This document shows, one piece after another, positions 12,105-61,700 of a DNA stretch of 64,000 nucleotides. The stretch covers positions 421-64,420 of the forward strand of contig JAGCVQ010000038.1 of the NCBI GenBank assembly GCA_017962275.1, given 5' to 3'. Every line of letters begins with the position of its first letter. Positions within the stretch are counted from its first letter, which is position 1. The stretch comes from Bacteroidales bacterium (GTDB taxonomy: Bacteria; Bacteroidota; Bacteroidia; Bacteroidales; WCHB1-69). The notes under the pieces were generated by a model that did no database searches, was not told the DNA's origin, and saw nothing but the letters and a program-made list of their open reading frames with translations. The position numbers and the translations under genes were made by a program.

Positions 12105-12112
12105 CGAAGATA
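12105..12112 (-). promoter_or_regulatory. -7 box variant TAtcTTCG (context TTGTATCTTCGCGGC) for the DUF349 gene
   Basis: The reverse complement reads ttgtatcttcgcggc, 39 nt upstream of ATG 12066. The same TGTATyTTCGCGGC context recurs at 17792-17808(-), 35095-35112(-) and 36371-36388(+). Confidence 0.5.
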
Positions 12113-12114
12113 CA

Positions 12115-12386: not shown

Positions 12387-12466
12387 ACGGTCATTTTGAA
12401 TATCAAGATGCAAAGATATAACAAAACAATGCGAATGATGGGGAAACGCCTCGTCCAACACCGCGC

Positions 12467-12700: not shown

Positions 12701-12703
12701 GGG

Positions 12704-12711
12704 CAAAGATA
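12704..12711 (-). promoter_or_regulatory. -7 box TAtcTTTG of sRNA copy 1
   Basis: The reverse complement reads ttattatctttgcccc. Confidence 0.55.
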
Positions 12712-12759
12712 ATAAAAAGATGGATTGGTTGTGTGGTTATTTTTCGTTGAGCGCTGGTG

Positions 12760-12787
12760 GTAGAGACGCAAAATTTTGCGTCTCTAC
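12760..12787. repeat. 28-bp palindrome family copy
   Basis: gtagagacgcaaaattttgcgtctctac, inside the 323-bp repeat. Confidence 0.9.
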
Positions 12788-12945
12788 GGTGCGACGACGA
12801 CCGGAAACAACATGGTTTCTTGCGAAATCTTGTTCTAAAAATTAACAATTCACAAAACCAATTGTTAAATCCATCTACGTATTTGTTTGGCCGCCAATTG
12901 GATGCAAAATTTCGCAGATCCCTTGACAAAGGGCATTTCTTGTTG

Positions 12946-12953
12946 TATATTTG
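12946..12953 (+). promoter_or_regulatory. -7 box TAtaTTTG upstream of the RhuM-like gene
   Basis: Context is tgtatatttgcag, 36 nt upstream of ATG 12989. Confidence 0.6.
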
Positions 12954-12988
12954 CAGACGGAAATTCATTAACCTAAAGACGAAAGAAC

Positions 12989-13855: not shown

Positions 13856-14088
13856 AAAAGAAAGTGGAGCCTTCATTCAACAGTCTCCACTCGGTAGGGC
13901 CTGGACTCCCTGTTAGTAAGATACTGAAGAACAAGCCCCACCTTATTGGCATAAACACTCAATAGGCAAGCTTGATTCCGGGTATCCGTACTAACTTCTG
14001 TAAACTGTCCAGGTTCACCGAGACGGACAAGCGAAACTCGCTTTCTTTTCAATAAAATCCCGTTGCCTCGTCTCGCGACGAAACGACG
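13855..14088 (-). ncRNA. candidate structured small RNA, family not identified (copy 2)
   Basis: Same unit as 12467-12700. Its terminator hairpin starts at the last base of the RhuM-like stop codon. Confidence 0.5.
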
Positions 14089-14290: not shown

Positions 14291-14392
14291 GTATATAGTC
14301 ATCGGCGCTTGCGTATATAGGCATCGGCGCTTGCGTATATAGGCATCGGCGCTTGCGTATATAGGCATCGGTGCTTGCGTATATACTCATCT
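14291..14392. repeat. 22-bp tandem repeat, about 4.6 copies
   Basis: Units of gtatatag(g/t)catcgg(c/t)gcttgc start at 14291, 14313, 14335 and 14357, with a partial unit at 14379. The partial unit contains the stop codon of the gene at 14387-16576. Confidence 0.9.
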
Positions 14393-37429: not shown

Positions 37430-40400
37430 ATGAAGAAATTTACGATTTTTTGTGCGCTGCTGTTCTTGACGGCAAGCATGGTGAACGGTCAAACCATTAC
37501 CCAGACCAACACCCAGTTCCCGAACCCGGGGTTCGAGAAATGGACAAACCACACTGGAGCAGATGTGTATCAAGGAACCTCCTATGTTCCTGACAATTGG
37601 CATACTTTTGATGAAGTCTTATGCCAAACTACACTCAATATCGGTTGTGGCGAAGCGGTGAAAACCAGTCATGAGCGATTATCAGGAAGTGACGCACTAA
37701 GCGGTTCTTATTCTTTAGACTTATTGACCCATAGGGCTGCAGGTATTGCCAGGGCTAACGGAACGATAACATCCGGCCGTACGCGTGTGGGAAGCATAAC
37801 CGTAACTAACTATCAAAATTACAATTATTCAGACCTATCTAATAGCAGTTCATACGGAAACGGGCATTTCTACTGGCCTTTTATTGGCTGTCCCGATTCC
37901 ATGTCTTTCTATTATAAAACAAACTGGTCAAGTTCATCAAACCAACCGCTTATCAAGGTATATTTGCACAAAGGAGCATGGTATGATCACGCCAATGGGG
38001 CTGTGAACGCCAGCGCATCTAGTAGCTCTTCTGACTTGAACAATACCAACCTAATAGCTTACTGTCAAACAGCATTCTCCCCCTCCACATCTTGGGCACG
38101 ATTTGCTGATAAGTTCATCCACTATTCCAATAATTCAGCTAACAATGACAACGACTACTCTACCATCACCCGTCCTCAATACATCTTGGCTTCTTTCTCA
38201 ACCAACGAATCAGCCGGTGGTGGCACCGATAATGATAGACTAGCCCTTGATAACCTTTGGTGCATTTACGACAAAGGACTCTCCTCCGTATCCATCGGCG
38301 GCACGGCGAACAGCGCCGCTTTGAACGCTTTCAATGCAGCAGAGTTCGCCACACACGAGCCTGCATGCGCCTACGATGCCAGTGGGAATCCTATCTTCAA
38401 CAACAGCGGAAGCACGACCTTCAACTACCCCACCCCGGTTGCTTGTAACAACATTCCGCAAGTAGCTGCGCAACCCAAATCGAAGCTCATCACCGCGTTC
38501 ACCGTCACGCAGGCCAACGCTGACAACGGCTACAAAGCCACCATCCACGTGGTGCATAACGACAACTCCACCTTCGATTACTACATCCAGTTCGCGGTGG
38601 ACCTCCCCACGTTGACCGCCACGGCCACCCCTCAGGTCGTTTGTGAGGGTGCTTCGGCCACGCTGAACGTGACGGGGGCCAACACCTACAGCTGGAGCAC
38701 CGGTCAATCCGGTTCCTCCATCACCGTGACCCCGACCCAGCAACACACCACCTACACGGTCACCGGCACAGCCTCCAACGGCTGCTCCAACACAGCCTCC
38801 GTTTCCGTGGAGATGCAACCTCAACCGACGGTCTCCATCTCCGGCAGCACTTCGATTTGTGCCGGCCTTGCCACCACCCTGACGGGTACTGGCGCAGCAA
38901 GCTACGTTTGGTCGAACGGCAGCCATGACAGTTACATCCAAGTGACGACCGGCGGTTCCTACACCGTGACCGGCAGTACCAGCTACGGCTGTACCGCCAC
39001 GGCCACCGTGACTGTCACCGCTCACGACGCGCCTACCGTCACCATCGACGGTCCGACCTTCCTGTGCAGCGGCACCACGGCCACGCTGACCGCCTCCGGA
39101 CTGAGCAACTACACCTGGAGCGGCAGTGCTCAAGGCAATGACAATCCGCTGACCATCACCTCCGGCGGCACCTACACCGTGAGCGGCACCGATGCCAACG
39201 GTTGCAGCGGCAGCACCACCAAGAGTGTCACGGGAAAGACCACCCCGACGGTCACCATCAGCGGCACCACCGCCCTCTGTGACGGGGCAACGGGCACGTT
39301 AACAGCCAACGTCACCCCGGCAAATTCCACCCTCACTTGGAACAACGGCAGCACGAGCAGCAGTCTGGACATCACCTCAGCAGACACCTACACCGTGACG
39401 GCCTCGTTGGACGGCTGCGAAAGTTCTGTCAGTGTGACCGTCACCTCGGCAGCGTCCCCGACAGCGCCCACCGCGAACAACGGTTCCCGCTGCGGCGAGG
39501 GCACGGTGGAGCTTTCTGTCAACAACCCCGTCGATGGCTACACCTACCACTGGTACACCCAGCAGTCGGGAGGATCAGAAGCTGGCAACGGCACCACCTT
39601 CACCACGACTAACCTCGTAAACCCGAACACATACAACTACTACGTGAGCGCACAGAACGAGGGTGGATGCTTCTCTCCCCGCACACAAGTGACCGCCACC
39701 GTCAACGCAGTCCCTGCGAATCCCGGTGTCGACGGCATGAGCGTTTGCGGTGCAAGCGACATCACCCTGACGGCCACCTCCGCTAACACGGTAAAATGGT
39801 ACTCCGATGCTGCCGGCAACAATGAGATCACGGCCGCACAGCACGTCACGGGCGATGCCACTTTCTATGCCGCTGCCATCAGCAGCAACGGTTGTCGCAG
39901 CGCACTTGTCCCGTTGACCGTCACGGTGAACGAGATTCCCGCCGCGCCTGTCGTCACCACGACCCCGGCCTCCCCGATTTGCTCCAACAACAGCGTGAGC
40001 GTGCAGCTCAACGTCCCCCAATTGACCGGTTACAACGTAAAATGGTACAACAGCGAAATGCAGTATGAAGGTCAGGGTTTCCAAATGACGAGGACGGTGA
40101 ACGGAATCACCACATACTATGCTACCATCACCAACAGCAACACCCAGTGTGTGAGCGCGGAAACGCCGGTCGAAATCGTCATCAACCCGCTGCCCACCGC
40201 TCCCAGCGACGTCACTAACGCCAGTGTTTGTGGATCGGGCGACATCACCCTCACGAACCAGTCCACCTCCGCGACGAACTGGTATTCCGACCCCAATGGG
40301 GAAACCGAAGCTGCTGTAAACCAACATATCACTTCGAACACCACCTTCTATGCCGCCGTTGTTGACCAGAACAACTGCCGCAGTTCCCTCGTCCCGATGA

Positions 40401-43400
40401 CCGTGACAGTGAATCCCGTCTATGCGCAAACGGACGATTACCAGACTGCTTGCGGTTCCTACACCTGGCAAGGCGAGACCTACACCACTTCGGGTGACAT
40501 CACGAAAACCATCTCCAGCAGTCTCGGCTGCGACAGCACCGTGACGCTGCACCTGACCATCAACAACGGCTACAATGTCTCCTTCGACACCACCGTTTGC
40601 AATGCGTTCACGTGGCTGGGTGAAACGTACACCACCTCCCAGACTATTGAAAAGAACCTGCAGAGTGTGAGCGGCTGCGACAGCATCGTCACTTGCCACC
40701 TGACCGTGAAGCACAGCTCGACCTCCACGCAAACGATTACGGTTTGCAACAACGAGATACCCTTCATGTTTGCAGGCACGGAAATCACCTCAGCCGGTAC
40801 CCAAACCATCACGTTACCCAACGCCAACGCCGACGGCTGTGACAGCATCATCACGTTGACCGTGAATGTGAACCCGACGCCGGGCACTCCAACCCTCAAT
40901 TCCACCGTTCTCTCCAGATGCGGTGCCGGAACTCTCAACCTGAATGTTTCCAAGGGCAGCAACAGTGACGGTTGCCGCTGGTATGCAACGCAAACTGGCG
41001 GAGAGCCGATCCACACCGGCCTTAGCTATACACCCGAGCTGACGGAAAGCACCACTTTCTACGTGTCGAGCTACAGCAACGCCGGCTGCGAAAGCGACCG
41101 CATTGAGGTGGCTGTCACCGTGAATGAGGTTCCGGGCGACCCGCAGATTACCACCGCCGAGGACACCCGCTGCGGTGCAGGTGATGTCATTCTTTCCGCC
41201 GCTGTGGGCGAGAACGGCACGCAATGCCGCTGGTATGGCAACAACAATCCGAACAACACTACGGTACTGAGCACGGAGAGCACTTACACCGTGACCTTCA
41301 ACAACAACCAAAACACCACCCGTACTTTCTACGTGGAGAGCTACAACGTAGCCACTGGCTGTAAAAGCGCGACCCGTGTGGCTGCTGTGGCCACGGAGAA
41401 CGCTGTTCCCGCCGCCCCGCAGGTAACTGACGCAACGAATTGCGGACCGCTCACCGCCGACCTCGCCGAATATGTAAACACTTCCGCAGACCTCTTCCGC
41501 TGGTACGACAGCGATGAAACCCAACTGGCCGAGAACGCCCATTACAACACAACCGTCAATGAATCAACCAATTTCTTAGTCAGCGTGTACAACAGCGAGA
41601 CCACCTGCGAGAGCCCGAAGTCAACCTTGACGGTGACTATCCGTCCGACCTACGAACCGCAATCCATCCACGACACCATCTGCCAGAATGTCCCCTACCA
41701 GAACTACGGCATCGCCCAGACCTTCACCACTGCTGGCGAAAAGAGCTTTGTGCTCAACACCGTCACCGCCAATGGCTGCGACAGTCTGGTTACATTATAT
41801 GTATATGTCAAACCGCAGGTGACCAATACCATCACGGCCGAAGCTTGCAACGAGTATGTTTGGAACGGAGAGACTTTCTCGGAATCAAACACTTATGTAA
41901 GAACGCTCACAGCTGCGAACGGATGCGACAGCGTGGTGACCCTGAACCTGACCATCAACACCGCCCAGCATCAAGATGTGTACGAAACCGCTTGCGACAG
42001 CTACGAATGGAACGGCGAGACTTACACCGCGTCGGGCGATCACACGATGACCTTCACATCGGCCAACAGCTGCGATTCTGTCGTGACGCTGCACCTGACC
42101 ATCAACTCGTCCACCTCATACACCGACGTCCACGATGTTTGCAACAGCTTCACCTGGATTGACGGCAACACTTACACCGAGAGCAACAACACCGCTACCT
42201 TCACGATGCCCAATGCCGCCGGTTGCGATTCCGTAATCACCCTGAACCTCACCGTCAGAAAGGCCACGGCCTACACCGACGTCCACGACGTTTGCGACAG
42301 CTACACCTGGATTGACGGCACCACCTACACCGAGAGCAACCACACGGCCACCTATACCACGACCAACGCTGCAGGCTGTGATTCCGTGATCACCCTGGAC
42401 CTCACCGTCAGAAAGGCCACGGCCTTCACGGATGTCCAAGAGGCCTGCAGCAGCTACACCTGGATTGACGGCATCACCTACACCGAGAGCAACCACACGG
42501 CCACCTTCACCACGACCAACGCCGCGGGCTGCGATTCCGTAGTGACCCTCGACCTCTCCATCCACCAACCTGTCGTCAAGAATTTGACCGACACGGTCTG
42601 CCAAGGCACCCCATACAACCGCCACGGCTTCCAGCTCGCCACGGATGTGCCGGGAACATACACCGAGACCCATAATTTGACGACCGTCTTCGGTTGTGAC
42701 AGCACCGTCACCCTCGAGCTCACCGTGAATCCCGCGCATCAGGTGCAACTTGCCGATACCATCTGCATCGGGGAGCCCTACACGGAAAATGGCTTCAACA
42801 TTCCCGCCGCCACGCAACCGGGTACCTTCCCCCACACCCTTTCCCTTCAGAACGCATACGGCTGCGACAGCACCGTCATGTTGAGCCTCACCGTGGCTCC
42901 CACCCAGTACATCGTGCTGAACGATATGGTATGCGCAGGTGAGCATTACACTAACTACGGTTTCGACACCACCCTCAGAGTGGCGGGCACCTACACGCTG
43001 ACCCACAACGACCTGACGGTCTTCGGATGCGACAGCACCACCACGCTGTCCCTCGTTGTGACACCCACCTACCAGACTCACCGGTACGACACCCTCTGCT
43101 TCAATGGAAGCATTTTCTTCAACGGCCAAACCTTAACGGCACCGGGCATTTATAGGGACACCCTTCCCTCCGTCCACGGCTGCGACAGTATCGTCATCCT
43201 GCACCTGAGTGTCCGTCCGGAGAAACGTCGGGACATTGTGGCGCACATCTGCAACGGCAGCGACTACACCGAGAACGGATTTAACATCACAGGCGCTACC
43301 GAAACTGACGACTACGAAAACAACAACCTCGATGTGAACGGCTGCGACAGCACGACCACGCTGCACCTTTTCGTCCATGACCCGGTCATCACGGAGCTGT

Positions 43401-46400
43401 CCGACACGGTTTGCCAAGGCACTGCCTACAACCGCTACGGATTCCAGTTTGACGCCGATGAGGCCGGCATCGTCACCCTGACGCAGGAGTTAGAGACCTC
43501 TTTCCACTGTGACAGCATCGTCATCCTGACGCTGACCGTGAACCCCTCGCACGACCTGACCTATGATGTTGACGGTTGTGTCAACGAACCCGTCTCTGCC
43601 TACGGTTTCGACACCACGTTCAACAAAGCCGGCCACTACACGCTGGTGCACCAAGGACTGAATGTTTACGACTGCGACAGCGTGACCACCCTGAACGTCC
43701 ACATCTACGCAAAACCGCAAACTTACCTCAACGCCACCATCTGCTACAACGACGAGTATGATTTCCATGGCGTGATGCTCACCGAAGAAGGTCTTTACAC
43801 GGACACTCTGACCTCTGCGCACGGTTGCGACAGCATCGTGAGACTCTACCTGACCCAATATCCCGAGAAGAGCCGCAGTTATGAGGCGCACACCTGCTAC
43901 GGGGAGGAATACAACGGTTACGGTTTCAGCATTCCGAACCCGACAGTTACTGACGATTACGTGAATAACGACTCCGACGTGAACGGCTGCGACAGCATCA
44001 CCACGCTGCACCTGATCGTGCATGAGCCCGTCACCACCATGCTCGAAGAGACTCTTTGCGTGGGCGAGGTTTACAACCAGAACGGCTTCCACATCCCGGT
44101 CATGTCCGCCATCGACACCATATACACCCAAAACCTGCAGACCGTGTTCGGTTGTGACAGTGTTGTCAACCTGCACCTTATCGCCAACCCGGTCCATTAC
44201 ATTGAACTGACCGACGATGTTTGCGCAGGTGTTCCCTACAACGACTATGGTTTCGACACCACATTCGCCAACGCAAACACCTACACCCTGATGAACATCG
44301 ACCAGAATGTCTATGGCTGCGACAGCGTCACTGTCCTGTACCTGAACGTTCACCCCAACTATAACATCAATATCTCCACCACCATCTGCGCCAACACCAG
44401 CTACAATTTCAACGGCAACGAGCTGACCGTTTCCGGTGTTTACACGGCGGAGCTGAGCACGGTTCACGGCTGCGACAGCATTGTCACCTTGACCCTCAAC
44501 GTGGGTGCGGAATTCCGTGACACCATCACCGACCACATCTGCGAAGGCGCTTCCTACGACAAGTACGGATTCACGATCGAGTCCCCGGAGACCGGTTTCT
44601 ACGACCAACATCTGACTTCCCAGAGCGGTTGCGACAGCTTTGTGGTGTTGCATCTTTATGTCCATGAGCTGAACACCACCGAATTGTTCGACACCATTTG
44701 CGAAGGAAATCCATACACGCTTTACGGCTTCAACATTCCCACCCCCGTCCTTGGTTCCCAAACCATCACCCGCACCGTCCAAACCGCCTACAGCTGCGAC
44801 AGCGTGGTGGTGTTGAATCTGGAAGTGCTTCCCGTGCATCATTTCGAATATGAGGACGATATCTGCGTCAACGGGCATTACAGCGGTCATGGATTTGACA
44901 CGGTGATCACGCAACCCGGTACCCACACCCTAATCCACTCCGAGGAGAACATCCACGGCTGCGACAGCACCGTCACGCTGCAACTTCGCGTCCACCCCGC
45001 CTACGACCAGACCATCAACGCCGCCATCTGCTACGGGGAGACCTACACCTTTGACGGCATGACCCTGAGTGAAACCGGCACCCACACAGCCGAATACACG
45101 ACGGATTTCGGCTGCGACAGCATCGTCACGCTGAATCTGACCGTCTATCCTGAATACCGCAAGGACATCGAGGCGCACATCTGCTTGGGTGAATCCTATT
45201 ACGCCAACGGCTTCACTATCGATAGCCCGACCGAGACCGACTACTACACCCGCACCACACAGCTTGCCAACGGCTGCGACAGCATCACCTATCTGCATCT
45301 GTTCGTGCACGAGCCTGTCGTCACCGAACTGTACGACACCCTCTGTGGTCAGGGCGCATACTCCGGTTACGGATTCATCATTGCCAACACGACCATCGGC
45401 ACCAATCTCTACACCCGCCATCTCGAGTCCGCCTATGAATGCGACAGCACGGTCAACCTGCATCTGACGGTGAATCCGGTGCACCACATCGTGGTGGACA
45501 CCCTCCTCTGCGCTGGCGAGCCGTTCACAAAGTTCGGGTTCGACACCACCTTCGCTGAAACCGGCAGCTACACGTTGGCTTACGAAGGGCTGAACAACTA
45601 CGGTTGCGACAGCACTTTCACCGTGAACATCGCCGTTCACCCCGTGTTCCAGCATGAAATCGAGGCAGCCATCTGCCATAACGAGACCTACCTGTTCAAC
45701 GGTGTGGCGTTAGCGGAGACCGGCAATTATACCGATACGCTGGCCACCATTTACGGCTGCGACAGCATCGTCACGCTGCACCTGACCGTCTATCCGGAGA
45801 AGCGCGACACCCTTGAGGTGGCAATCTGCGAAGGCGAGAGCTACACCGAGAACGATTTCGAGATTTTCTCTCCTTCTGAGACCAAGTATTACAGCCACGC
45901 GACGACCGATGTTAACGGATGTGACAGCACCACGGTTCTGCACCTCATCGTGAATCCGCGTGCCTACACCAATTTCACCCAGACGCTCTGTGTCGGTGAG
46001 AGCTATACCGAGAATGGCTTCAATGTCTTGGCTTCCGTGCCCGGCACGTTCACCCACACACAGCATCTGCAGACCACCAACGGTTGCGACAGCATGGTCA
46101 CGTTGCAGATCACGGTGAACCCCACGCATCAGATGGTGTTCAACGACACCGCTTGCGCCGGAAGTGCCTACACACAGCACGGCTTCGACACCACTTTCAA
46201 CGAGGCCGGCCTCTACACGCTGATCCACAGCGAGCCGAACGTTTACGGTTGCGACAGCACCATCACGCTGCATCTGCGCGTATGGCCGTCCTACCATTAC
46301 AGCATCTCGACGATGATCTGCGAGAACGGCAGCTACGAATTCAACGGGGAGACCTATACGGAAGCGGGCAGCTACACCGCCGAACTGCAGACCTCGCACG

Positions 46401-49400
46401 GCTGCGACAGCATCGTGATACTGAACTTGTCAGTCGGTGCCGAATACCGCGACACCATCGTGGCACATGTCTGTGAAGGCAGTGATTATACCGAGAATAA
46501 TTTCAATCTTACCAATGTCACCGAATCCGGCTACCACACCCAGCAAGGCTTGGCCCAGAACGGCTGCGACAGCATCACCGTGCTGCACCTCATCGTCCAT
46601 GGGCTGAACACCACAGAGCTGAACGCCACTGTGTGCTTAGGCGAGAGCTACCAGCTGAACGGTTTCGACGTGACACCCACGACCGCTGGCGACACCACCT
46701 GCACTCGCATAGTGCCCACCGAATACAACTGCGACAGCACGATTGTGCTCCACCTCACAGTGAATCCGACCAACGCTGTGGCGTTGACGGATGAGGTCTG
46801 TGCCGGCATCCACTATCAGGCCAACGGCTTCGACACCACGTTTGCCGAGGCGGGCATTTATACGCTCACGAACACCGGTCTGAACATCTATGGTTGCGAC
46901 AGCATCACAACGATGACCCTGACCGTGTGGCCGAACCTGCAGTCCGAATACTATGACACCATCTGCCACAACACCACCTACGATTTCCACGGCACTATCC
47001 TCGCGGAGGCCGGTGATCATACCGTCACACTCCAAAGCGAACACGGATGCGACAGCGTGGTGACCCTGCATTTGGCCATCCGTCCCGAGGTGATTTCCGA
47101 ATTTGCCGAAACCGCCTGCACGAGTTACACTTGGAACGACTCCGTCTATACAACCTCTGGCGATTATGTGCAACACTTCCAGGATGTTAACGGTTGCGAC
47201 AGCACCGTGACGCTGCACCTGACCATCCATACCGCCGATGCTGTCCAAATCACCGCTACCGCTTGCGTGAACTTCACGTGGAATGACACCATCTACACGG
47301 AATCCGGCGATTACACCCAGTTGTTCCAGAATGCCAACGGTTGCGACAGCCTTGTGACGTTGCATCTGACTATCAACCCGGTCTATAACATCAACCTGCA
47401 CGACACCATCTGTCTCGGCACGCATTACGCTGCCAACGGCTTCGACACGCTGCCGACCGACGCAGGCACCTACGTCCTCGTGCATGAAAGCCAGAGCATC
47501 CACGGCTGCGACAGCACTACCACGCTGCACCTGACCGTCAACCCGACCTACAGCATCGACACCACCGTCAACATCTGTGACGTGGAAGTGCCTTACATTT
47601 GGGACAACGAGCAGTACTGGGAAACCGGTGACTTTGACATCCCCTACTCTACTGTCAACGGCTGCGACAGCATCGTCCATCTGCATCTGAACGTCAACCC
47701 AACTTACAGCTTCAACGTGTCGGCGACGGTCTGCCAAGGTGCGCTGCCTTACTGGTTCGACGAGGAGCACAGTTTCAGCCAAGGCGGAGACCACACCATC
47801 ACCCTGACGACGGTGAACGGTTGCGACAGCGTATGTCATCTGCATCTCACCGTCATCCCGAACAGCGAGCACTACGTGACACATACCATCTGTGCTTCCG
47901 AACTGCCCCACACCTTCATGGACAGCACCTTCACTGAAGCCGGCGAGTACGAAATTGTGGTGGCGGACATCGACAACTGCCTCACCATCACGCACTTCAC
48001 GCTGAATGTCAACGACACCTACCATCACTATGACACCGTGACCGTGTGCGAGGAGACCCTGCCTTACACCTATGGCACTACCTCGCTGAACACCACAGGC
48101 GACTACGACATTCTCTTCAGCACTGTCAACAGCTGTGACAGTTTAGTCTCCGTCCACTTCACGGTGATCCCGACTGCGCACGGTGTTGAGGAACAGTACG
48201 TCTGCGCCAGCGACTTCCCGATGGTTTACGGCGGCAACACCTTCACGCAGGAGGGCACTTACGAGGTGGTCTTCCAACGCGACGGCCTCTGCGACAGCAT
48301 CGTGACCTTCACGCTGCACCAGGCTCAGGAGTACCTGATTCCCGAAACCGCCGAGGTTTGCGACCACAGCCTGCCGTACGAATGGCGTGGAATGCAGTTC
48401 AACGAGAGCGGTATCTATTACGATTCGTTGACCACCGGCCACGGCTGTGACAGCGTCTATAAGCTCACGCTGACCGTCAACCCGACCGTGGTGATCACCG
48501 ACAATCCCATCGTGCTGTGCGCAGGCGGAAGCGAGATTTGGCGCGGCATGACCCTCACGGAGAGCGGCACTTACCGTGACACCGCGAACAGCGTGACTAC
48601 GGGCTGCTACGAAATCCACGAGGTGACCGTCACCGTCAACCCGACCTACCATATTTACGACACCGTGACCATCTGTAGTGACGAGCTGCCGTATCTGTGG
48701 CACGGCTTGACGCTGAACAGCGCCGGCTCACGCGAAGACTACCACCAGACCGTCAACTTCTGCGACAGCATTTACTACCTCACGTTGTTCGTCAACCCGT
48801 CGTATCACGCCACGGAGACCGCCTCCGCCTGCGACTACGACCTGCCGTATCTGTGGCACGGCCAGACGATTACCGCCAGCGGCATCTACTACGACACGCT
48901 GACCACCGCCAACGGCTGCGACAGCACCTTCATGCTCACCTTCACGGTGAACACCTCGAGCTACGTGACCGAAACCGAGACAATCTGCAACACCAGCCTG
49001 CCGTATCTGTGGCGCGGCTACACGCTCACAGCTGCCGGCACCTACTACGACACGGTGCCCAACACCTTCGGCTGCAACGACGTGTATGAGCTGCAACTCA
49101 CGGTGAACCAGAGCGATGTAATCACCATCCACGACACCATCTGCCAAGGCGGTTATTACACGCTGAACGGTTTCGACACGCTTGCGGCACAACCCGGCAC
49201 GCTCTATGACCAGTTAACGCTCACCAACACCAACGGCTGCGACAGCACGGTGAACCTCATCCTGCAGGTGATGCCGACCTATCTGTTCGAGACCACGGCG
49301 TCCACCTGTGAGAACGTGCCCTACGAATGGCACGGCGGCAGCTACAGCGTCGAGGGCGACTACTACGACAGCCTGACCACCGTTTACGGCTGCGACAGCG

Positions 49401-49861
49401 TCTATGTGCTGCACCTCTCCCTCAACCCGATTTACGACATCTACGTGACCGATACGGCCATCCGCGAGCACGAATACGTCAACGGCAGCTTCGTAATCAC
49501 CCCTGCTGACAGCGGCACGTTCGAATACGACATCCAGTACTTCACGTTAGTCGGCTGCGACAGTATCGTCCACCTGACCCTCTATGTGGCCTTCAACGAC
49601 GGTGTTGAGGAGTTCACGATGGAGCCGGAGTTCTCGTTCTATCCGAACCCGACGAGCGTGATGTTGAACATCCGCGGCGAGCGCATGAAGAGCGTGGCGG
49701 TCTTCAACATGGCCGGCAAACTGCTCAACCAGCAAGACGCCGACACGCCCGACTTCACGCAGATTGACGTAATCAACCTCCCGACCGGCCACTACTTGGT
49801 GAAAGTGACCTTGGACGACGGCAAGACGGTGACCGGAAAGATCATCGTGAGCCGGCGGTAA
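37430..49861 (+). CDS. giant (4143 aa) T9SS type A cargo protein built of Ig-like repeats and about 50 two-cysteine GCDS modules
   Basis: One uninterrupted 12.4-kb ORF. Order of parts: signal peptide; an N-terminal ~280 aa possibly PCMD-like (FPNPGFEKW...); Ig-like repeats (CxGxxATL..., RCGxGTVxLxA...WY); about 50 modules ending GCDSxVTLxLTV; C-terminus FYPNPTSVMLNI...VAVFNMAGKLL...LPTGHYLVKV (Por secretion tail). Confidence 0.9.
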   Translation: MKKFTIFCALLFLTASMVNGQTITQTNTQFPNPGFEKWTNHTGADVYQGTSYVPDNWHTFDEVLCQTTLNIGCGEAVKTSHERLSGSDALSGSYSLDLLTHRAAGIARANGTITSGRTRVGSITVTNYQNYNYSDLSNSSSYGNGHFYWPFIGCPDSMSFYYKTNWSSSSNQPLIKVYLHKGAWYDHANGAVNASASSSSSDLNNTNLIAYCQTAFSPSTSWARFADKFIHYSNNSANNDNDYSTITRPQYILASFSTNESAGGGTDNDRLALDNLWCIYDKGLSSVSIGGTANSAALNAFNAAEFATHEPACAYDASGNPIFNNSGSTTFNYPTPVACNNIPQVAAQPKSKLITAFTVTQANADNGYKATIHVVHNDNSTFDYYIQFAVDLPTLTATATPQVVCEGASATLNVTGANTYSWSTGQSGSSITVTPTQQHTTYTVTGTASNGCSNTASVSVEMQPQPTVSISGSTSICAGLATTLTGTGAASYVWSNGSHDSYIQVTTGGSYTVTGSTSYGCTATATVTVTAHDAPTVTIDGPTFLCSGTTATLTASGLSNYTWSGSAQGNDNPLTITSGGTYTVSGTDANGCSGSTTKSVTGKTTPTVTISGTTALCDGATGTLTANVTPANSTLTWNNGSTSSSLDITSADTYTVTASLDGCESSVSVTVTSAASPTAPTANNGSRCGEGTVELSVNNPVDGYTYHWYTQQSGGSEAGNGTTFTTTNLVNPNTYNYYVSAQNEGGCFSPRTQVTATVNAVPANPGVDGMSVCGASDITLTATSANTVKWYSDAAGNNEITAAQHVTGDATFYAAAISSNGCRSALVPLTVTVNEIPAAPVVTTTPASPICSNNSVSVQLNVPQLTGYNVKWYNSEMQYEGQGFQMTRTVNGITTYYATITNSNTQCVSAETPVEIVINPLPTAPSDVTNASVCGSGDITLTNQSTSATNWYSDPNGETEAAVNQHITSNTTFYAAVVDQNNCRSSLVPMTVTVNPVYAQTDDYQTACGSYTWQGETYTTSGDITKTISSSLGCDSTVTLHLTINNGYNVSFDTTVCNAFTWLGETYTTSQTIEKNLQSVSGCDSIVTCHLTVKHSSTSTQTITVCNNEIPFMFAGTEITSAGTQTITLPNANADGCDSIITLTVNVNPTPGTPTLNSTVLSRCGAGTLNLNVSKGSNSDGCRWYATQTGGEPIHTGLSYTPELTESTTFYVSSYSNAGCESDRIEVAVTVNEVPGDPQITTAEDTRCGAGDVILSAAVGENGTQCRWYGNNNPNNTTVLSTESTYTVTFNNNQNTTRTFYVESYNVATGCKSATRVAAVATENAVPAAPQVTDATNCGPLTADLAEYVNTSADLFRWYDSDETQLAENAHYNTTVNESTNFLVSVYNSETTCESPKSTLTVTIRPTYEPQSIHDTICQNVPYQNYGIAQTFTTAGEKSFVLNTVTANGCDSLVTLYVYVKPQVTNTITAEACNEYVWNGETFSESNTYVRTLTAANGCDSVVTLNLTINTAQHQDVYETACDSYEWNGETYTASGDHTMTFTSANSCDSVVTLHLTINSSTSYTDVHDVCNSFTWIDGNTYTESNNTATFTMPNAAGCDSVITLNLTVRKATAYTDVHDVCDSYTWIDGTTYTESNHTATYTTTNAAGCDSVITLDLTVRKATAFTDVQEACSSYTWIDGITYTESNHTATFTTTNAAGCDSVVTLDLSIHQPVVKNLTDTVCQGTPYNRHGFQLATDVPGTYTETHNLTTVFGCDSTVTLELTVNPAHQVQLADTICIGEPYTENGFNIPAATQPGTFPHTLSLQNAYGCDSTVMLSLTVAPTQYIVLNDMVCAGEHYTNYGFDTTLRVAGTYTLTHNDLTVFGCDSTTTLSLVVTPTYQTHRYDTLCFNGSIFFNGQTLTAPGIYRDTLPSVHGCDSIVILHLSVRPEKRRDIVAHICNGSDYTENGFNITGATETDDYENNNLDVNGCDSTTTLHLFVHDPVITELSDTVCQGTAYNRYGFQFDADEAGIVTLTQELETSFHCDSIVILTLTVNPSHDLTYDVDGCVNEPVSAYGFDTTFNKAGHYTLVHQGLNVYDCDSVTTLNVHIYAKPQTYLNATICYNDEYDFHGVMLTEEGLYTDTLTSAHGCDSIVRLYLTQYPEKSRSYEAHTCYGEEYNGYGFSIPNPTVTDDYVNNDSDVNGCDSITTLHLIVHEPVTTMLEETLCVGEVYNQNGFHIPVMSAIDTIYTQNLQTVFGCDSVVNLHLIANPVHYIELTDDVCAGVPYNDYGFDTTFANANTYTLMNIDQNVYGCDSVTVLYLNVHPNYNINISTTICANTSYNFNGNELTVSGVYTAELSTVHGCDSIVTLTLNVGAEFRDTITDHICEGASYDKYGFTIESPETGFYDQHLTSQSGCDSFVVLHLYVHELNTTELFDTICEGNPYTLYGFNIPTPVLGSQTITRTVQTAYSCDSVVVLNLEVLPVHHFEYEDDICVNGHYSGHGFDTVITQPGTHTLIHSEENIHGCDSTVTLQLRVHPAYDQTINAAICYGETYTFDGMTLSETGTHTAEYTTDFGCDSIVTLNLTVYPEYRKDIEAHICLGESYYANGFTIDSPTETDYYTRTTQLANGCDSITYLHLFVHEPVVTELYDTLCGQGAYSGYGFIIANTTIGTNLYTRHLESAYECDSTVNLHLTVNPVHHIVVDTLLCAGEPFTKFGFDTTFAETGSYTLAYEGLNNYGCDSTFTVNIAVHPVFQHEIEAAICHNETYLFNGVALAETGNYTDTLATIYGCDSIVTLHLTVYPEKRDTLEVAICEGESYTENDFEIFSPSETKYYSHATTDVNGCDSTTVLHLIVNPRAYTNFTQTLCVGESYTENGFNVLASVPGTFTHTQHLQTTNGCDSMVTLQITVNPTHQMVFNDTACAGSAYTQHGFDTTFNEAGLYTLIHSEPNVYGCDSTITLHLRVWPSYHYSISTMICENGSYEFNGETYTEAGSYTAELQTSHGCDSIVILNLSVGAEYRDTIVAHVCEGSDYTENNFNLTNVTESGYHTQQGLAQNGCDSITVLHLIVHGLNTTELNATVCLGESYQLNGFDVTPTTAGDTTCTRIVPTEYNCDSTIVLHLTVNPTNAVALTDEVCAGIHYQANGFDTTFAEAGIYTLTNTGLNIYGCDSITTMTLTVWPNLQSEYYDTICHNTTYDFHGTILAEAGDHTVTLQSEHGCDSVVTLHLAIRPEVISEFAETACTSYTWNDSVYTTSGDYVQHFQDVNGCDSTVTLHLTIHTADAVQITATACVNFTWNDTIYTESGDYTQLFQNANGCDSLVTLHLTINPVYNINLHDTICLGTHYAANGFDTLPTDAGTYVLVHESQSIHGCDSTTTLHLTVNPTYSIDTTVNICDVEVPYIWDNEQYWETGDFDIPYSTVNGCDSIVHLHLNVNPTYSFNVSATVCQGALPYWFDEEHSFSQGGDHTITLTTVNGCDSVCHLHLTVIPNSEHYVTHTICASELPHTFMDSTFTEAGEYEIVVADIDNCLTITHFTLNVNDTYHHYDTVTVCEETLPYTYGTTSLNTTGDYDILFSTVNSCDSLVSVHFTVIPTAHGVEEQYVCASDFPMVYGGNTFTQEGTYEVVFQRDGLCDSIVTFTLHQAQEYLIPETAEVCDHSLPYEWRGMQFNESGIYYDSLTTGHGCDSVYKLTLTVNPTVVITDNPIVLCAGGSEIWRGMTLTESGTYRDTANSVTTGCYEIHEVTVTVNPTYHIYDTVTICSDELPYLWHGLTLNSAGSREDYHQTVNFCDSIYYLTLFVNPSYHATETASACDYDLPYLWHGQTITASGIYYDTLTTANGCDSTFMLTFTVNTSSYVTETETICNTSLPYLWRGYTLTAAGTYYDTVPNTFGCNDVYELQLTVNQSDVITIHDTICQGGYYTLNGFDTLAAQPGTLYDQLTLTNTNGCDSTVNLILQVMPTYLFETTASTCENVPYEWHGGSYSVEGDYYDSLTTVYGCDSVYVLHLSLNPIYDIYVTDTAIREHEYVNGSFVITPADSGTFEYDIQYFTLVGCDSIVHLTLYVAFNDGVEEFTMEPEFSFYPNPTSVMLNIRGERMKSVAVFNMAGKLLNQQDADTPDFTQIDVINLPTGHYLVKVTLDDGKTVTGKIIVSRR

Positions 49862-49883
49862 ACTATGATACCATAACGTTTTT

Positions 49884-49917
49884 GTAGGGGCGGATAAATA
49901 TTCGCCCCTACGTTTTT
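49884..49917 (+). terminator. intrinsic terminator of the giant gene
   Basis: gtaggggcg gataaatatt cgcccctac followed by gttttt. Confidence 0.8.
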
Positions 49918-49945
49918 ATAAGCTATCACATTCATCCAAAAAACG

Positions 49946-49953
49946 TATCTTTG
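49946..49953 (+). promoter_or_regulatory. -7 box TAtcTTTG upstream of the CPBP protease gene
   Basis: Context is cgtatctttgccgccg. The octamer array lies between it and ATG 50066. Confidence 0.55.
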
Positions 49954-49970
49954 CCGCCGAAACTTTGAAC

Positions 49971-50050
49971 CGTGTAACCGTGTAACCGTGTAACCGTGTA
50001 ACCGTGTAACCGTGTAACCGTGTAACCGTGTAACCGTGTAACCGTGTAAC
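49971..50050 (+). repeat. perfect tandem octamer (CGTGTAAC)x10
   Basis: Ten uninterrupted identical 8-bp units, counted base by base. Confidence 0.95.
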
Positions 50051-58650: not shown

Positions 58651-58748
58651 GAGGACGGCAAAGGTACATTTTTTTTGGAATGGGCGTGAAAAGATAATTC
58701 GTGCGAGACTTGGCAACACTATCATTCCTTTCATATCCGTATTTTATA

Positions 58749-58756
58749 TACCTTTG
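58749..58756 (+). promoter_or_regulatory. -7 box TAccTTTG
   Basis: Context is tatacctttgccgcg, 20 nt upstream of ATG 58776. Confidence 0.6.
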
Positions 58757-58775
58757 CCGCGTAAAGTTCTACGTC

Positions 58776-61700
58776 ATGATCCCCGGATGCAAACGACACT
58801 TCTTATTGAAACGCCTCACGTGCCTGACCGCCGCCGCGATCTCTTGTCTGCTCTCTTTCGCCCAGCAACAGGGGTTCCCCTACACGGTGGTCGTTGACAC
58901 GGTGGTGGGCGATTGTTTCAACAACTGTCAGGCCGTCGTCTCGCTGTATGACGCACAGGGGCATCTCATCCAGACCAATGACTCGCTGCTGCATCCGGTC
59001 GATTCTGTCGCGTATCCCATCACCAATCTGCAATACCATTACAAGAACCAGCTTTACAACAGCGTCTTCTATAGCGACAGCCATGTCCTGACCATGGACG
59101 TGGGCACGTATGACATCGGTGTTTCTGGAATGATGATGGTGCAAGTGGGTTCCAGCCTTGTGCCTGTGCCAGTGGACACCACGCTGCACGGAATCACACT
59201 CACAAGTACCTACAACCTCTTTTCCGCGTCGATGCTGGCGGGAATAGCCGGGAACAACAACTTGGTGAACGGGTTGATGCGCGAGCAGTGCGGCAACCGG
59301 CATGCTCTGCCCTGCGGCAACCGGGGACGTGTGCAAATGAAGCTCACTGATGGCAAGTTCCCCTACACGGTGATCTTCACCGATGAACAGGAGGACACGA
59401 TCCGTTTCGTGGTTTTCGATCAACCGCAACACACCGGGGACGACTCCCTGTATGCCGATTACAAGGACTATTACACGTTCGACAGTCTGCCCGCCGGGAC
59501 TTACCGCATTGAGGCCCACGATGCGTGCACCTATACCTTGGTATTCCACCATACGGTCGAATTGAACGACGTGCATGTCAACTACCTCTATTACAAGACA
59601 AGCCCGAACAACCCTTCCGATTCCAACACCGTAAGGTTCACGGCGCAGTATTCCTGTCCAAAAGGTGCCTATAACTACGATTATGCGTTTTTCGAGACCA
59701 TTTTCGAGTATCGTTTCATTCACACTACCGACTCCGGACTTGTTGACACGTCGTCGTGGCATCCAATTGACGGATCTTCATTGAATTACATGTACAACGG
59801 CATCTACTGCGACACTTTAAGCTTTGCCAGCCGGTATTGCGATATGTATGGGCACACCATCCGATTCGAAGTGCGCGACCTGTGTCACCAAGACACCCTC
59901 TTTCGTGCCCTGACGTTGACCCCTCCCGACACCACCTGCTACTTCACCGACACGGAAGACGATGGTTACTGTATGGGGCAAATGGTCCTCGACACTTGTT
60001 CCTTGACATGCGATTTGGCGGTGAACTATACAAAATGGTACCGCATCTGGTATGGCTGCGGCCACAACAGCGGCTATTCTTCCTCCAGTTACCCCCAACT
60101 CTACTACTACACCTACCCGCTGCATTGGATTTACACGGACTCTGCAACCGGACAGGTGATCAAAACGGAAGCAGTGAATGAGATCACTTCGATTTCCACG
60201 CTGACGTACACGGATGTGGAGAACGTTTATGGCACCTACTCCTACCTCCCGCTACCGGTTATCCGCACCCTCGTCGATGCACATGGCTGCGTGATTGTGA
60301 GCCGTTTCGACACGCTGCTGTTTGTACGGGACACGACACCGGCCGAGGCTCCTTACGAATGGTTCGTAGAATCCAATTTTGACTACAACTACTACTCCCG
60401 GTGTTTCAGTTCGAACCGCACCATTAGAGTGTATGAGGACTTGACTCCCTACCCTTCCTTCCGGGATTCGACCGTGGTGCGGTTAATCACAAGCCCCCTC
60501 TACAACAAATACAACTTCACCGCCACCTACGCCAACGGAGGATGGACCATTGTGGAAGAGGATTCGGTGAACAACGACGCGAGTATCGTGGGATCAGGTA
60601 TGAGCGTCACCATCAGCGACAACCATCTGTCAGGAGGGCTCTACGTCTTCGTGTGCGAAACGCCATGCGGTATTGACACACTGCAAATTATCATTAACGG
60701 CATCTTCTACGACAGCTGGGAGTGGATTGAATATCCCGCCTACGAGTCGGAGCAGGAATGCAACGACTTGCTCGTCCGTCCCATTTCCGGGAAATACAGG
60801 CGCTACACCTATTGCATTGATGCTCAGGTGAGCAATGACGAGCCCGTCGTCACGACGTATGACTATAGCCCGAACATCATTTTGGTGTCAGGGGAGGTTG
60901 GGGGGTATTCGACCACCACGACCTACATGAATACGCCGTTCCGATTCACCATTCCCGGCGATTATGTCATAAAAATGTATTTTTGGGGGTGCAGTGACGA
61001 ATATTTCCAAATCGACACCATCCATTTCGTGCGTGTCAGGGTGGATTTCGAGAAGGCCTACGGGGTGGTATGCGACTCTACAGCGAGCACAGGGACCGTC
61101 ATCGCACGCGCCATCGACGGATCCGAGCCTTATACGTACAAACTGTACAGCCAGCCGGACCTGCACGGCAACTTGTTAGGGACCAGCCAAGACGGTCTGT
61201 TCTACAATGTCCCCATGCACTTGGGGCAGGAATTATCCGTTTTGGTAATCGATTCCTGCGAAAACAGCTTCTCCATCAACATTGTCGCCATGTCCATTGA
61301 ACAGAGTCAGCTGTTGTGGTTCGAGGGGGACGCACCTGACCCAGGACTATGCGTTGGAGACACGATCACGTTGTCAGCGCTTCCGTTCAACAGCTTCATC
61401 ACCTATTCTTGGCACGGACCGGAGAATTTCACTTCGACAAGCGAGCAGGTCAATTACTATGCTGCCGACACCACGTCGAAAGGCTGGTTGGTGGTTGAGC
61501 TGTTGAACACGGGCTGCCCGGTTCCGGTCAAGGACAGCCTCTATATAAACGTGCTTTACCGACCGCAAATATTTGTCAGTGCGATAGATACGGTTTGCGC
61601 CGGCGACACCGTGCAAGTGGACATCACCGCATTGGGAACCGGCACCGTCTATTTCAATCTCGGCCGCACCTTCGCAGGAACCCAGTCCAGTCTGGCTTTG

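What the first reader, a model, noticed from the sequence alone, without database searches (positions are those of the whole stretch)
37430..49861. 12.4-kb gene for a 4143-aa T9SS cargo built from about 50 copies of an unnamed two-cysteine GCDS module
After the signal peptide, an N-terminal ~280-aa domain and two blocks of Ig-like repeats, the protein is almost entirely short modules. Each module starts near a Cys (for example ACxSYTWxGETYTxSG, DTxCxGxxYxxxGF, or C...LPYxWxG) and ends 35-45 residues later in [G/N/S]CDSx[V/T/I]xLxLTV(N/H)P. I count roughly 50 such endings plus 3 degenerate ones (NCLTITHFTLNVN, GCYEIHEVTVTVN, GCNDVYELQLTVN). At least three length classes occur: about 40 aa (YTW type), about 54 aa, and about 65-70 aa (LPYxW type). 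Two conserved Cys per module in an exported protein suggests one disulfide per module. I cannot assign this module to any named domain family. The C-terminal ~75 aa is a type A T9SS sorting domain, so the product is predicted to be surface-attached or secreted. It is one of four T9SS cargo genes in this 64-kb window.
Basis: partly seen in the sequence, partly recalled or inferred. Interest (0 to 1): 0.7.

Follow-up and report, generated by a model that had tools for sequence, protein, structure and literature searches.

The report
Disulfide-stapled mini-Ig stalk of giant adhesin
This 12.4-kb gene encodes a giant Bacteroidota surface protein whose stalk is 53 copies of a common but unnamed ~52-residue mini Ig-like module, and cysteine co-loss across relatives indicates that each module is disulfide-bonded to the next one rather than within itself.

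Summary
ORF 37430-49861 (+) encodes 4143 aa with 53 contiguous modules: 50 end in CDS and 3 are degenerate. It has a type A T9SS C-terminal domain, and the window holds three other T9SS cargo genes.

No Pfam, NCBIfam or PDB sequence match covers the module. The family is nevertheless large (33,044 representative proteins at E<=1e-3) and spans Bacteroidota orders.

New points:
- The module is a shortened relative of the protein's own 70-aa Ig-like repeats (hhalign 90%).
- Across 5,248 modules in 120 homologues, Cys1 of module i and Cys2 of module i+1 are lost together 67 times and alone 4 times (p=4e-145). The two Cys of one module are never lost together. The disulfide therefore staples each junction, as seen by cryoEM in GhpA, the best fold match.
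- The conserved D-S-[I/V/T] after Cys2 matches the Bacteroidota O-glycosylation sequon in 90% of modules.
- The N-terminal head is a CBM/PCMD-like jelly roll. It is 51% identical in a strain whose stalk is 98% identical.

Independent assemblies overlay without indels, so this is not an assembly artefact. My reading: a fibrillar adhesin with a rigid, probably glycosylated stalk and a variable tip.

The parts
37430..37489 (+). Sec-type signal peptide (aa 1-20, MKKFTIFCALLFLTASMVNG)
   Evidence: Read directly from the translation. The same N-terminus is present in the full-length ORF of an independent strain. Homologues align from their residue 22-23 onwards. No signal-peptide predictor was available.
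37490..38278 (+). N-terminal head: CBM/PCMD-like beta jelly roll (aa 21-283), the putative ligand-binding tip
   Evidence: AF2 model of aa 21-400: pLDDT 84, pTM 0.84. Foldseek best hits are 3s30 BVU_0247 (E=1.5e-7) and CBM16 (E=3e-5 to 5e-4). One homologue hits Pfam PCMD PF13201 at E=1e-9. The head is only 51% identical in a strain whose stalk is 98.2% identical.
38279..38614 (+). Small beta-sandwich domain between head and stalk (aa 284-395)
   Evidence: AF2 strands at model residues 264-371, with pLDDT mostly above 90. No family was assigned.
38615..39463 (+). Four ~70-aa two-Cys Ig-like repeats (aa 396-678)
   Evidence: Alignment A5. hhalign to the GCDS module gives probability 90%, E=1.6e-6.
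39464..40417 (+). Four Ig_7 (PF19081) domains (aa 679-996)
   Evidence: Pfam Ig_7 E=9.9e-61, 9 stretches in the protein, best at aa 677-759. Alignment A4.
40418..40876 (+). GCDS module block 1: 3 modules (aa 997-1149)
40877..41650 (+). Three Ig_7 domains (aa 1150-1407)
41651..49594 (+). GCDS module block 2: 50 contiguous modules of 49-56 aa (aa 1408-4055). Consensus: x8-T-x-C-x4-Y-x-W-x-G-x6-G-x-Y-x8-G-C-D-S-x-V-T-L-x-L-T-V-x-P
   Evidence: Module list and alignment A1. AF2 of 4 modules gives pLDDT 94.1. Cys1(i)-Cys2(i+1) co-loss. O-glycosylation sequon directly after Cys2 in 49 modules.
42569..47086 (+). 4-module (215 aa / 645 nt) super-repeat, about 7 copies (aa 1714-3219)
   Evidence: Module identity is 45% at lags 4, 8 and 12, against 32% at other lags. 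DNA repeat families D3, D4 and D6 have 645-nt spacing at 61-74% identity.
42119..42556 (+). Youngest duplication: 153-nt unit x 2.9 (modules 7-9), 86% nt matches
   Evidence: Tandem Repeats Finder.
49640..49858 (+). Type A T9SS C-terminal sorting domain (aa 4071-4143)
   Evidence: PF18962 E=1.2e-11. TIGR04183 E=9.2e-11, above its cut-off.

Best explanation
The gene encodes a T9SS-exported, cell-surface-anchored fibrillar adhesin.

Architecture, from the distal tip to the cell:
- signal peptide;
- a CBM/PCMD-like jelly-roll head (the ligand-binding tip, probably glycan-binding);
- a small beta-sandwich;
- a stalk of 11 Ig-like domains and 53 copies of a ~52-aa mini-module;
- a type A C-terminal domain.

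The module is a shortened Ig-like repeat with three long strands. Strand b1 ends at Cys1. Strands b2 and b3 form a hairpin, and Cys2 sits at the start of b3. An aromatic Y-x-W/GF loop lies between b1 and b2.

Modules stack head to tail. Cys1 at the top of module i bonds Cys2 at the bottom of module i+1. Every junction then has two covalent links, the peptide chain and a disulfide, which gives an overlapping chain of disulfide loops along the stalk.

The invariant D-S-[I/V/T] after Cys2 is a Bacteroidota O-glycosylation sequon, so each junction probably also carries a glycan.

Inferred pathway:
1. Sec export to the periplasm.
2. Oxidation and O-glycosylation in the periplasm.
3. T9SS translocation.
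4. Removal of the CTD and attachment to anionic LPS.

The result would be a stiff, protease-resistant rod of roughly 150-200 nm that presents a variable head.

Shown here: the anatomy, the fold confidence, the family size, the Cys coupling, the sequon conservation and the head/stalk mosaicism.

Inferred, not shown: the actual bonds, the glycans, the rod length, the ligand and the anchoring.
For: Architecture.

Module fold: AF2 of 4 modules with a 69-sequence alignment gives pLDDT 94.1. Each module shows the same pattern of 3 long and 2 short strands.

Closest solved structure: the GhpA neck (9flp_A), from a T9SS-secreted fibre, at E=9e-9. All other hits have E>1e-5 and are generic tandem beta-domains. 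The GhpA paper reports disulfides between neighbouring Ig-like domains (Cys2988-Cys3140) and glycan densities on all its Ig-like domains (10.1101/2024.01.29.577165).

Inter-module disulfide:
- The 2x2 table for Cys1(i) against Cys2(i+1) is 4578 both present, 1 and 3 lost alone, 67 lost together. Fisher p=4e-145, in 29 distinct sequence clusters.
- Intra-module co-loss is 0 of 320 losses. Cys2(i)/Cys1(i+1) show no association.
- Last-in-array modules lack Cys1 in 28% of cases, against 1.6% for internal modules. This protein's module 53 is one of them.
- Mutual information with APC correction on 4,325 module pairs ranks A11-B39 and A50-B37 as the top inter-module couplings. It also recovers a b2/b3 hairpin ladder.

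Ig-like origin: hhalign of the module against the protein's own 70-aa Ig-like repeats gives probability 90%, E=1.6e-6.

Glycosylation sequon:
- D(S/T)(A/I/L/V/M/T) follows Cys2 in 89.6% of 5,226 modules.
- The module region holds 87 sequons, against 15.6 +/- 3.7 in shuffles.
- The motif is taken from PMC8550257 and PMC8729774.

Head: Foldseek to 3s30 and CBM16. The head is 51% identical where the stalk is 98.2% identical.

CTD.
Against: - The tools do not return model coordinates, so no Cys-Cys distance was measured. The pairing rests on covariation alone.
- First-in-array modules keep Cys2 in 96% of cases. That requires an upstream partner Cys, which I could not show. Cys parity of the head region is 12 odd and 12 even across homologues.
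- D-S-[IVT] sits at the start of a beta-strand, where I, V and T are favoured anyway. It could therefore be conserved for structural reasons.
- In P. gingivalis, abundant T9SS cargo proteins are biased against O-glycosylation (PMC8729774).
- No ligand, no expression data and no T9SS machinery genes are in the window.
- The window's own head sequence does not reach Pfam PCMD.
Confidence: 0.68

Rival explanations
1. Each module is an autonomous two-Cys mini-domain closed by its own internal Cys1-Cys2 disulfide, like beads on a string.
For: 49 of 53 modules have exactly two Cys, spaced 26-33 aa apart. Both terminal modules of block 1 and the first module of block 2 keep both Cys.
Against: In 5,248 modules the two Cys of one module are never lost together (0 of 320 losses). 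Cys1(i) and Cys2(i+1) are lost together 67 times and separately 4 times. Couplings and DSSP place Cys1 at the C-terminal end of b1 and Cys2 at the N-terminal start of b3. The register couplings (3-44, 9-50) suggest b1 and b3 run parallel, which would put the two Cys at opposite ends of the module.
Confidence: 0.06
2. The modules are not only a spacer. Each is a low-affinity binding unit, for example for polysaccharide through the conserved Y-x-W/GF aromatic loop, so the array acts as a multivalent lectin.
For: Y16, W18 and G20 are conserved (76%, 54% and 68% in 5,248 modules). Distinct loop subtypes (YxW, LPYxW, YxxxGF) are kept in a fixed 4-module order. The family is attached to many different N-terminal domains and to both CTD types.
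Against: In a ~50-aa domain the aromatic residues are more likely the hydrophobic core. The strain comparison shows the stalk to be nearly invariant (98.2%) and the head to be variable (51%), which points to the head as the specificity determinant. There are no fold matches to lectins.
Confidence: 0.15
3. It is a GhpA-like multimeric 'grappling hook': several protomers align side by side to form a hollow rigid fibre.
For: The best structural match is the GhpA neck at E=9e-9. It shares giant size, T9SS export, inter-domain disulfides and probable glycans.
Against: Module profiles find no sequence similarity to any PDB chain, 9flp included. TMq is only 0.37. No PorP/PorE-like ghpB/C genes lie next to the gene; the neighbours are a CAAX protease, YkuD and NAD synthase. 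The head is a jelly roll, not the hook-like adhesin domain the paper describes. Oligomerisation cannot be tested here.
Confidence: 0.08
4. The ORF is a collapsed or chimeric assembly of repeats.
For: It is a long repeat array. One 153-nt unit is repeated 2.9 times at 86% matches.
Against: All other DNA copies are 60-80% identical. Assemblies from other samples at 98.2%, 99.2% and 99.4% identity overlay with no indel. Flanking synteny is conserved and a full-length ORF is present in the other strain.
Confidence: 0.02

Closest known systems
Ig_7 (PF19081, 'Ig-like domain CHU_C associated') and the ~70-aa two-Cys Ig-like repeats of T9SS cargo proteins
   Same: They occur in the same protein and in the same class of giant T9SS cargos. 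The motif order is shared: Cys, then aromatic-x-W, then G-x-Y-T-V, then G-C-x-S, then V-x-V-x-V. hhalign of the module against the 70-aa repeats gives probability 90%, E=1.6e-6 over 38 columns.
   Different: The module is 49-56 aa, against 70-85 aa. It lacks roughly the strand-B segment and has the near-invariant G-C-D-S motif. The Pfam Ig_7 model does not detect it, and hhalign to this protein's Ig_7 copies gives only 31% probability.
GhpA grappling-hook protein of Aureispira (PDB 9flp; 10.1101/2024.01.29.577165)
   Same: It is a giant T9SS substrate with a stalk of about 52 small beta-repeats, disulfides between neighbouring repeats, glycans on every repeat and an N-terminal binding module at the distal end. 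It is the best Foldseek hit, E=9e-9.
   Different: No sequence-level homology was found. GhpA repeats are described as full Ig-like domains (52 repeats), not ~52-aa modules. GhpA is a heptamer with adjacent ghpB/C anchor genes. Here there are no such neighbours, and the head fold differs.
Fibrillar adhesins with tandem stalk domains (for example the RTX adhesins MpAFP and FrhA, or Rib/SasG-type stalks)
   Same: An anchor, a long rod of tandem beta-domains and a terminal ligand-binding domain. Tandem Rib and RTX-adhesin repeats appear among the weaker fold matches.
   Different: Those stalks are stiffened by Ca2+ or by domain interfaces rather than by a disulfide at every junction. They use other secretion and anchoring systems.
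PCMD domain (PF13201; PDB 3s30 BVU_0247) and CBM16-type carbohydrate-binding modules
   Same: The N-terminal head has the same jelly-roll fold (Foldseek E=1.5e-7 and 3e-5). A homologous head hits PF13201 at E=1e-9.
   Different: The window's own head does not reach any Pfam threshold. Sequence identity to the structures is 10-14%. No binding-site residues were checked.

Membership tests
T9SS type A cargo protein | C-terminal type A sorting domain (PF18962 / TIGR04183) | tested here: met
   PF18962 E=1.2e-11 at aa 4071-4140. TIGR04183 scores 41.6 bits against a cut-off of 23.
T9SS type A cargo protein | N-terminal Sec signal peptide | tested here: inconclusive
   MKKFTIFCALLFLTASMVNG-Q has the expected basic, hydrophobic and small-residue layout and is conserved in the sister strain. 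No predictor was run.
T9SS type A cargo protein | T9SS machinery (SprA/Sov, PorU, PorV and others) in the genome; secretion, CTD cleavage and A-LPS attachment | not testable with these tools
   No machinery genes were found among the ORFs I scanned in the 64-kb window. Three other CTD-bearing genes are present.
Pfam Ig_7 (PF19081) | Match to the family HMM above the gathering score | tested here: not met
   This applies to the modules. Among single-module scans, 1 of 53 modules hits Ig_7, at E=0.046. hhalign to this protein's Ig_7 copies gives probability 31%. The feature is met for the 7 Ig_7 domains outside the module blocks.
Two-Cys ~70-aa Ig-like repeat of the same protein (distant homology) | Significant profile-profile match | tested here: met
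   hhalign probability 90%, E=1.6e-6. Module columns 13-50 align to repeat columns 22-65. The repeat profile has only 4 sequences, so this is moderate evidence.
GhpA-like grappling hook | Fold similarity of stalk repeats | tested here: met
   Foldseek 9flp_A E=9e-9, probability 1.00, TMq 0.37.
GhpA-like grappling hook | Sequence homology to GhpA | tested here: not met
   Module profiles A1 and A2 find no PDB chain related to GhpA at E<=10.
GhpA-like grappling hook | Adjacent PorP/PorE-like anchor genes (ghpB/C) | tested here: not met
   The downstream genes are an Rce1-like protease, a YkuD transpeptidase and NAD synthase, in two strains.
GhpA-like grappling hook | Heptameric hollow fibre | not testable with these tools
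   This needs cryo-EM or cryo-ET.
SprB-type gliding adhesin | SprB repeats (PF13573) and a type B CTD (PF13585) | tested here: not met
   Neither family is hit. The CTD is type A.
PCMD / CBM-like jelly roll (N-terminal head) | Jelly-roll fold matching PCMD or CBM structures | tested here: met
   3s30 E=1.5e-7 and CBM16 E=3e-5, using a model with pLDDT 84.
PCMD / CBM-like jelly roll (N-terminal head) | Pfam PF13201 match, or demonstrated sugar binding | tested here: inconclusive
   The window sequence has no hit. One of 24 homologous heads hits at E=1e-9. Binding is not testable here.
Bacteroidota general O-glycosylation substrate | Sequon D(S/T)(A/I/L/V/M/T) on a Sec-exported protein | tested here: met
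   The protein has 92 sequons, 49 of them directly after Cys2. The sequon is present in 89.6% of 5,226 homologous modules, and the module region is 5.6-fold enriched over shuffles.
Bacteroidota general O-glycosylation substrate | Glycan actually attached | not testable with these tools
   This needs glycoproteomics.

The most novel reading that the evidence does not exclude
The GCDS module is an undescribed, phylum-wide domain family with about 33,000 representative proteins. It would build extracellular rods on a principle not described for bacterial fibres: every inter-domain junction is covalently doubled by a staggered Cys1(i)-Cys2(i+1) disulfide and capped by an O-glycan on the adjacent conserved Ser. 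The whole 50-module stalk would then be one continuous chain of overlapping disulfide loops.
Probability: 0.5. Interest if true: 0.7.

Novelty: new variant of a known kind. Interest (0 to 1): 0.58.

Why it matters
- A repeat that makes up most of tens of thousands of giant Bacteroidota surface proteins in gut, rumen, soil and aquatic lineages has no family model. These proteins are therefore annotated only by their ends ('T9SS type A sorting domain-containing protein').
- Defining the module and its phase gives correct domain boundaries for annotation and for structure work.
- It predicts a testable mechanical design: a junction-stapled, glycan-capped rod.
- It links the one solved T9SS fibre (GhpA) to a much larger class.
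- The contrast between a conserved stalk and a swapped head points to tip variation as the way these adhesins diversify.
- Database gene calls for this protein start at internal codons. They lose the signal peptide and part of the head.

Tried and rejected
- The search for homologous proteins with the single-module profile returned only fragments under 100 aa, so it gave no architectures.
I replaced it with a degenerate DNA pattern scan.
- PDB sequence searches with single-module and 4-module profiles and with the head found nothing meaningful.
- A Cys co-loss test on the Ig_7 and 70-aa Ig-like repeats had too few Cys losses to tell which pairing applies there.
- I looked at Cys parity of the head region as a test for a partner of the first stalk Cys2. 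It was 12 odd and 12 even, so it is uninformative.
- A second sequon before Cys1 (D-T-[ILV]-C) is present in only 11 of 52 modules here and 12% of homologous modules, so it is not a conserved feature.
- Literature searches for the module (GCDS motif; T9SS with cysteine repeat; SprB with Ig-like and disulfide) found no description. Only the GhpA paper is relevant.
- The tools do not return model coordinates, so Cys-Cys distances could not be measured.
Full report
**Observation**

The window has a single ORF at 37430..49861 (+) of 4143 aa. 'CDS' occurs 52 times. 50 of these close a module and 2 lie at module starts. They form two blocks: aa 997-1149 (3 modules) and aa 1408-4055 (50 modules). 49 of the 53 modules have exactly two Cys.

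Module periods are 49-56 aa (49: 5 modules; 51-53: 22; 54-56: 25). Cys1-to-Cys2 spacing within a module is 26-33 aa.

From aa 1714 to 3219 the modules form a 4-module, 215-aa (645-nt) super-repeat of about 7 copies. Module identity is 45% at lags 4, 8 and 12, against 32% at other lags. DNA repeat families show 645-nt spacing.

Pfam finds Ig_7 in 9 stretches and the type A CTD at aa 4071-4140. NCBIfam TIGR04183 agrees on the CTD. The claim of four T9SS cargo genes in the window is correct: 14387-16576(-), 18016-20727(+), this gene, and 58701-63302(+).

**Not an assembly artefact**

- DNA copies of the module are 60-80% identical. The only young duplication is a 153-nt unit repeated 2.9 times at 86% matches.
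- The 90% cluster of this protein holds versions from other assemblies. Three non-identical ones (98.2%, 99.2% and 99.4% identity) overlay on the window protein without a single indel over 2856-3986 aa.
- One of these contigs has the same downstream genes and an intact full-length ORF with the same signal peptide.
- Database gene calls start at internal codons (aa 158, 179 and 276). They drop the signal peptide and part of the head.

**Is the module a named family?**

No Pfam-A or NCBIfam model hits it, either in the whole protein or module by module at E<=10. Profiles of one module (A1) and of four modules (A2) find no PDB chain of any relevance. Literature searches found no description of it.

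The family is nevertheless very large:
- A search with the module region returned more than 5,600 proteins. Most are giants of 2,000-4,600 aa carrying 16-77 modules each. They have many different N-terminal domains and both type A and type B CTDs.
- The 4-module profile, scored against 1.84 billion representative proteins, gives 33,044 proteins at E<=1e-3, 22,074 at E<=1e-10 and 10,175 at E<=1e-30.
- A degenerate DNA pattern for GCDSx[VIM]TLxLT[VIM] finds the module in Bacteroidales, Marinilabiliales, Flavobacteriales, Chitinophagales (including Saprospiraceae), Cytophagales and Sphingobacteriales.

**What the module is**

AF2 on four consecutive modules (aa 2575-2789), with a 69-sequence alignment of units from homologues, gives pLDDT 94.1 and pTM 0.64. 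Every module shows the same pattern:
- a 10-residue strand b1 that ends at Cys1;
- two short strands in the aromatic loop;
- strand b2;
- an 11-residue strand b3 that starts right after Cys2.

Profile-profile comparison aligns module columns 13-50 with columns 22-65 of the protein's own 70-aa two-Cys Ig-like repeats (probability 90%, E=1.6e-6). The match to this protein's Ig_7 copies is weak (31%). I read the module as an Ig-like repeat that has lost roughly one strand.

The best solved-structure match is the neck of GhpA (9flp_A, E=9e-9). GhpA is the T9SS-secreted grappling-hook fibre of Aureispira. All other hits are generic tandem beta-domains with E>1e-5.

**Disulfide pairing**

The tools do not return model coordinates, so I used evolution instead. 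I aligned 5,248 modules from 120 homologues to the module HMM and tabulated Cys presence.

| Pair tested | Both present | Lost alone | Lost together | Result |
|---|---|---|---|---|
| Cys1(i) / Cys2(i), same module | 4728 | 189 (Cys1) and 131 (Cys2) | 0 | never co-lost |
| Cys2(i) / Cys1(i+1) | 4471 | 120 (Cys2) and 149 (Cys1) | 4 | no association |
| Cys1(i) / Cys2(i+1) | 4578 | 3 (Cys1) and 1 (Cys2) | 67 | Fisher p=4e-145 |

The 67 co-losses fall in 29 distinct sequence clusters from several protein lineages. The sequences are cleanly aligned; for example, GVDS, GYDS and GADS replace GCDS in these modules.

Last-in-array modules lack Cys1 in 28% of cases, against 1.6% for internal modules. 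This protein's last module (Ile in place of Cys1) is one of them.

An independent mutual-information analysis with APC correction on 4,325 module pairs supports the same geometry:
- It recovers the b2/b3 hairpin ladder (33-43, 30-44, 28-46).
- It recovers a b1/b3 register (3-44, 9-50).
- Its strongest inter-module couplings are A11-B39 (the two Cys) and A50-B37.

These couplings place the end of b1 and the end of b3 of module i against the b2-b3 turn of module i+1. The disulfide therefore staples each junction. The disulfide loops overlap along the array.

The GhpA paper reports the same kind of bond by cryoEM, between neighbouring Ig-like domains (Cys2988-Cys3140). It also reports glycan densities on every Ig-like domain.

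**Glycosylation sequon**

The near-invariant D-S after Cys2 (91-92% conserved) is followed by I, V, T, L, M or A in 98.6% of cases. This matches the Bacteroidota O-glycosylation motif D(S/T)(A/I/L/V/M/T) (PMC8550257, PMC8729774).
- The sequon is present in 89.6% of 5,226 modules.
- In this protein it follows Cys2 in 49 modules.
- The module region holds 87 sequons, against 15.6 +/- 3.7 in shuffles.

This is a prediction, not a demonstration. The position starts a beta-strand, where I, V and T are favoured anyway. In P. gingivalis, abundant T9SS cargo proteins avoid the motif.

**The head**

AF2 of aa 21-400 (pLDDT 84, pTM 0.84) gives a jelly roll followed by a small beta-sandwich. Foldseek matches 3s30 (BVU_0247, E=1.5e-7) and CBM16 modules. 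One homologous head hits Pfam PCMD at E=1e-9.

In the strain whose stalk is 98.2% identical, the head is only 51% identical. This mosaic is what I would expect if the head is the specificity-determining tip.

**Mechanism**

Shown here: the architecture, the confident module fold, the Ig-like ancestry, the junction Cys coupling, the sequon conservation, the CBM-like head, the head/stalk mosaicism and the CTD.

Inferred from what is established for T9SS type A cargo and Bacteroidota O-glycosylation:
1. Sec export.
2. Periplasmic oxidation and glycosylation.
3. T9SS translocation.
4. CTD removal and attachment to anionic LPS, which makes the C-terminus cell-proximal and the head distal.

At about 3.3 nm per module plus about 4 nm per Ig-like domain, the stalk would be roughly 150-200 nm long. 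This is my estimate, not a measurement.

Neighbouring genes are housekeeping genes (pheT and topA upstream; CAAX protease, YkuD and NAD synthase downstream). The context adds no functional partner.

**Rivals**

- Intra-module disulfide beads are disfavoured by the co-loss data.
- A multivalent lectin role for the aromatic loops cannot be excluded.
- A GhpA-like heptamer is possible but lacks the ghpB/C neighbours and any sequence homology.
- An assembly artefact is excluded for practical purposes.

**Novelty and score**

This is a fibrillar-adhesin stalk repeat of Ig-like descent, so the kind is known. The module itself is unnamed despite its abundance. The junction-stapling disulfide topology, with a conserved sequon beside it, is a distinct variant that has experimental precedent only in GhpA. 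I rate it 'new variant of a known kind', with interest 0.58.

Noticed in passing
window 62493-62810 (inside ORF 58701-63302, +): The type B (CHU_C) T9SS cargo gene at the end of the window also carries two GCDS modules (aa 1266-1371, domain E-values 2e-6 and 7e-8) just upstream of its CTD. The module is therefore shared between type A and type B cargos in one genome.
   Followed up: partly
window 37430-38278 versus L121 2230-3060: The head domain is 51% identical between two strains whose stalks are 98.2% identical and indel-free. This looks like head replacement by recombination at about aa 276-283 (the conserved CIYDKG motif).
   Followed up: partly
window 37430-38260: Public gene calls for this protein start at internal codons (aa 158, 179 and 276). 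They omit the signal peptide and part of the head. The full ORF with a signal peptide is intact in both strains.
   Followed up: yes
window 40973-40975 and 41225-41227 (Cys1182 and Cys1266): Ig_7 domains 5 and 6 each carry one extra Cys in the motif [GQ]-C-R-W-Y, 84 aa apart (one domain period). They may form an additional inter-domain disulfide.
   Followed up: no
L043 (MAG labelled Thalassovita sp.) and L051 (MAG labelled Bifidobacterium sp.): The module DNA pattern also matched contigs in two MAGs labelled as non-Bacteroidota. This is probably mis-binning; L051 has a single match, which could be chance. I did not examine them.
   Followed up: no
window 12001-14000: There is a low-GC stretch (0.44, against about 0.55 elsewhere) that holds a RhuM-family gene (12989-13855). 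It may be a small mobile or foreign insert.
   Followed up: no
window 38001-50000: GC skew is strongly negative (-0.13 to -0.21) and AT skew positive across the whole gene. I assume this reflects the Thr/Asn/His-rich, C-rich codon usage of the repeats rather than replication.
   Followed up: no
homologues P0145, P0125, P0140, P0147, P0158: In some lineages many junctions have lost the Cys1(i)/Cys2(i+1) pair while keeping the D-S that follows (GYDS, GNDS, GADS). The D-S motif is therefore retained independently of the disulfide.
   Followed up: partly
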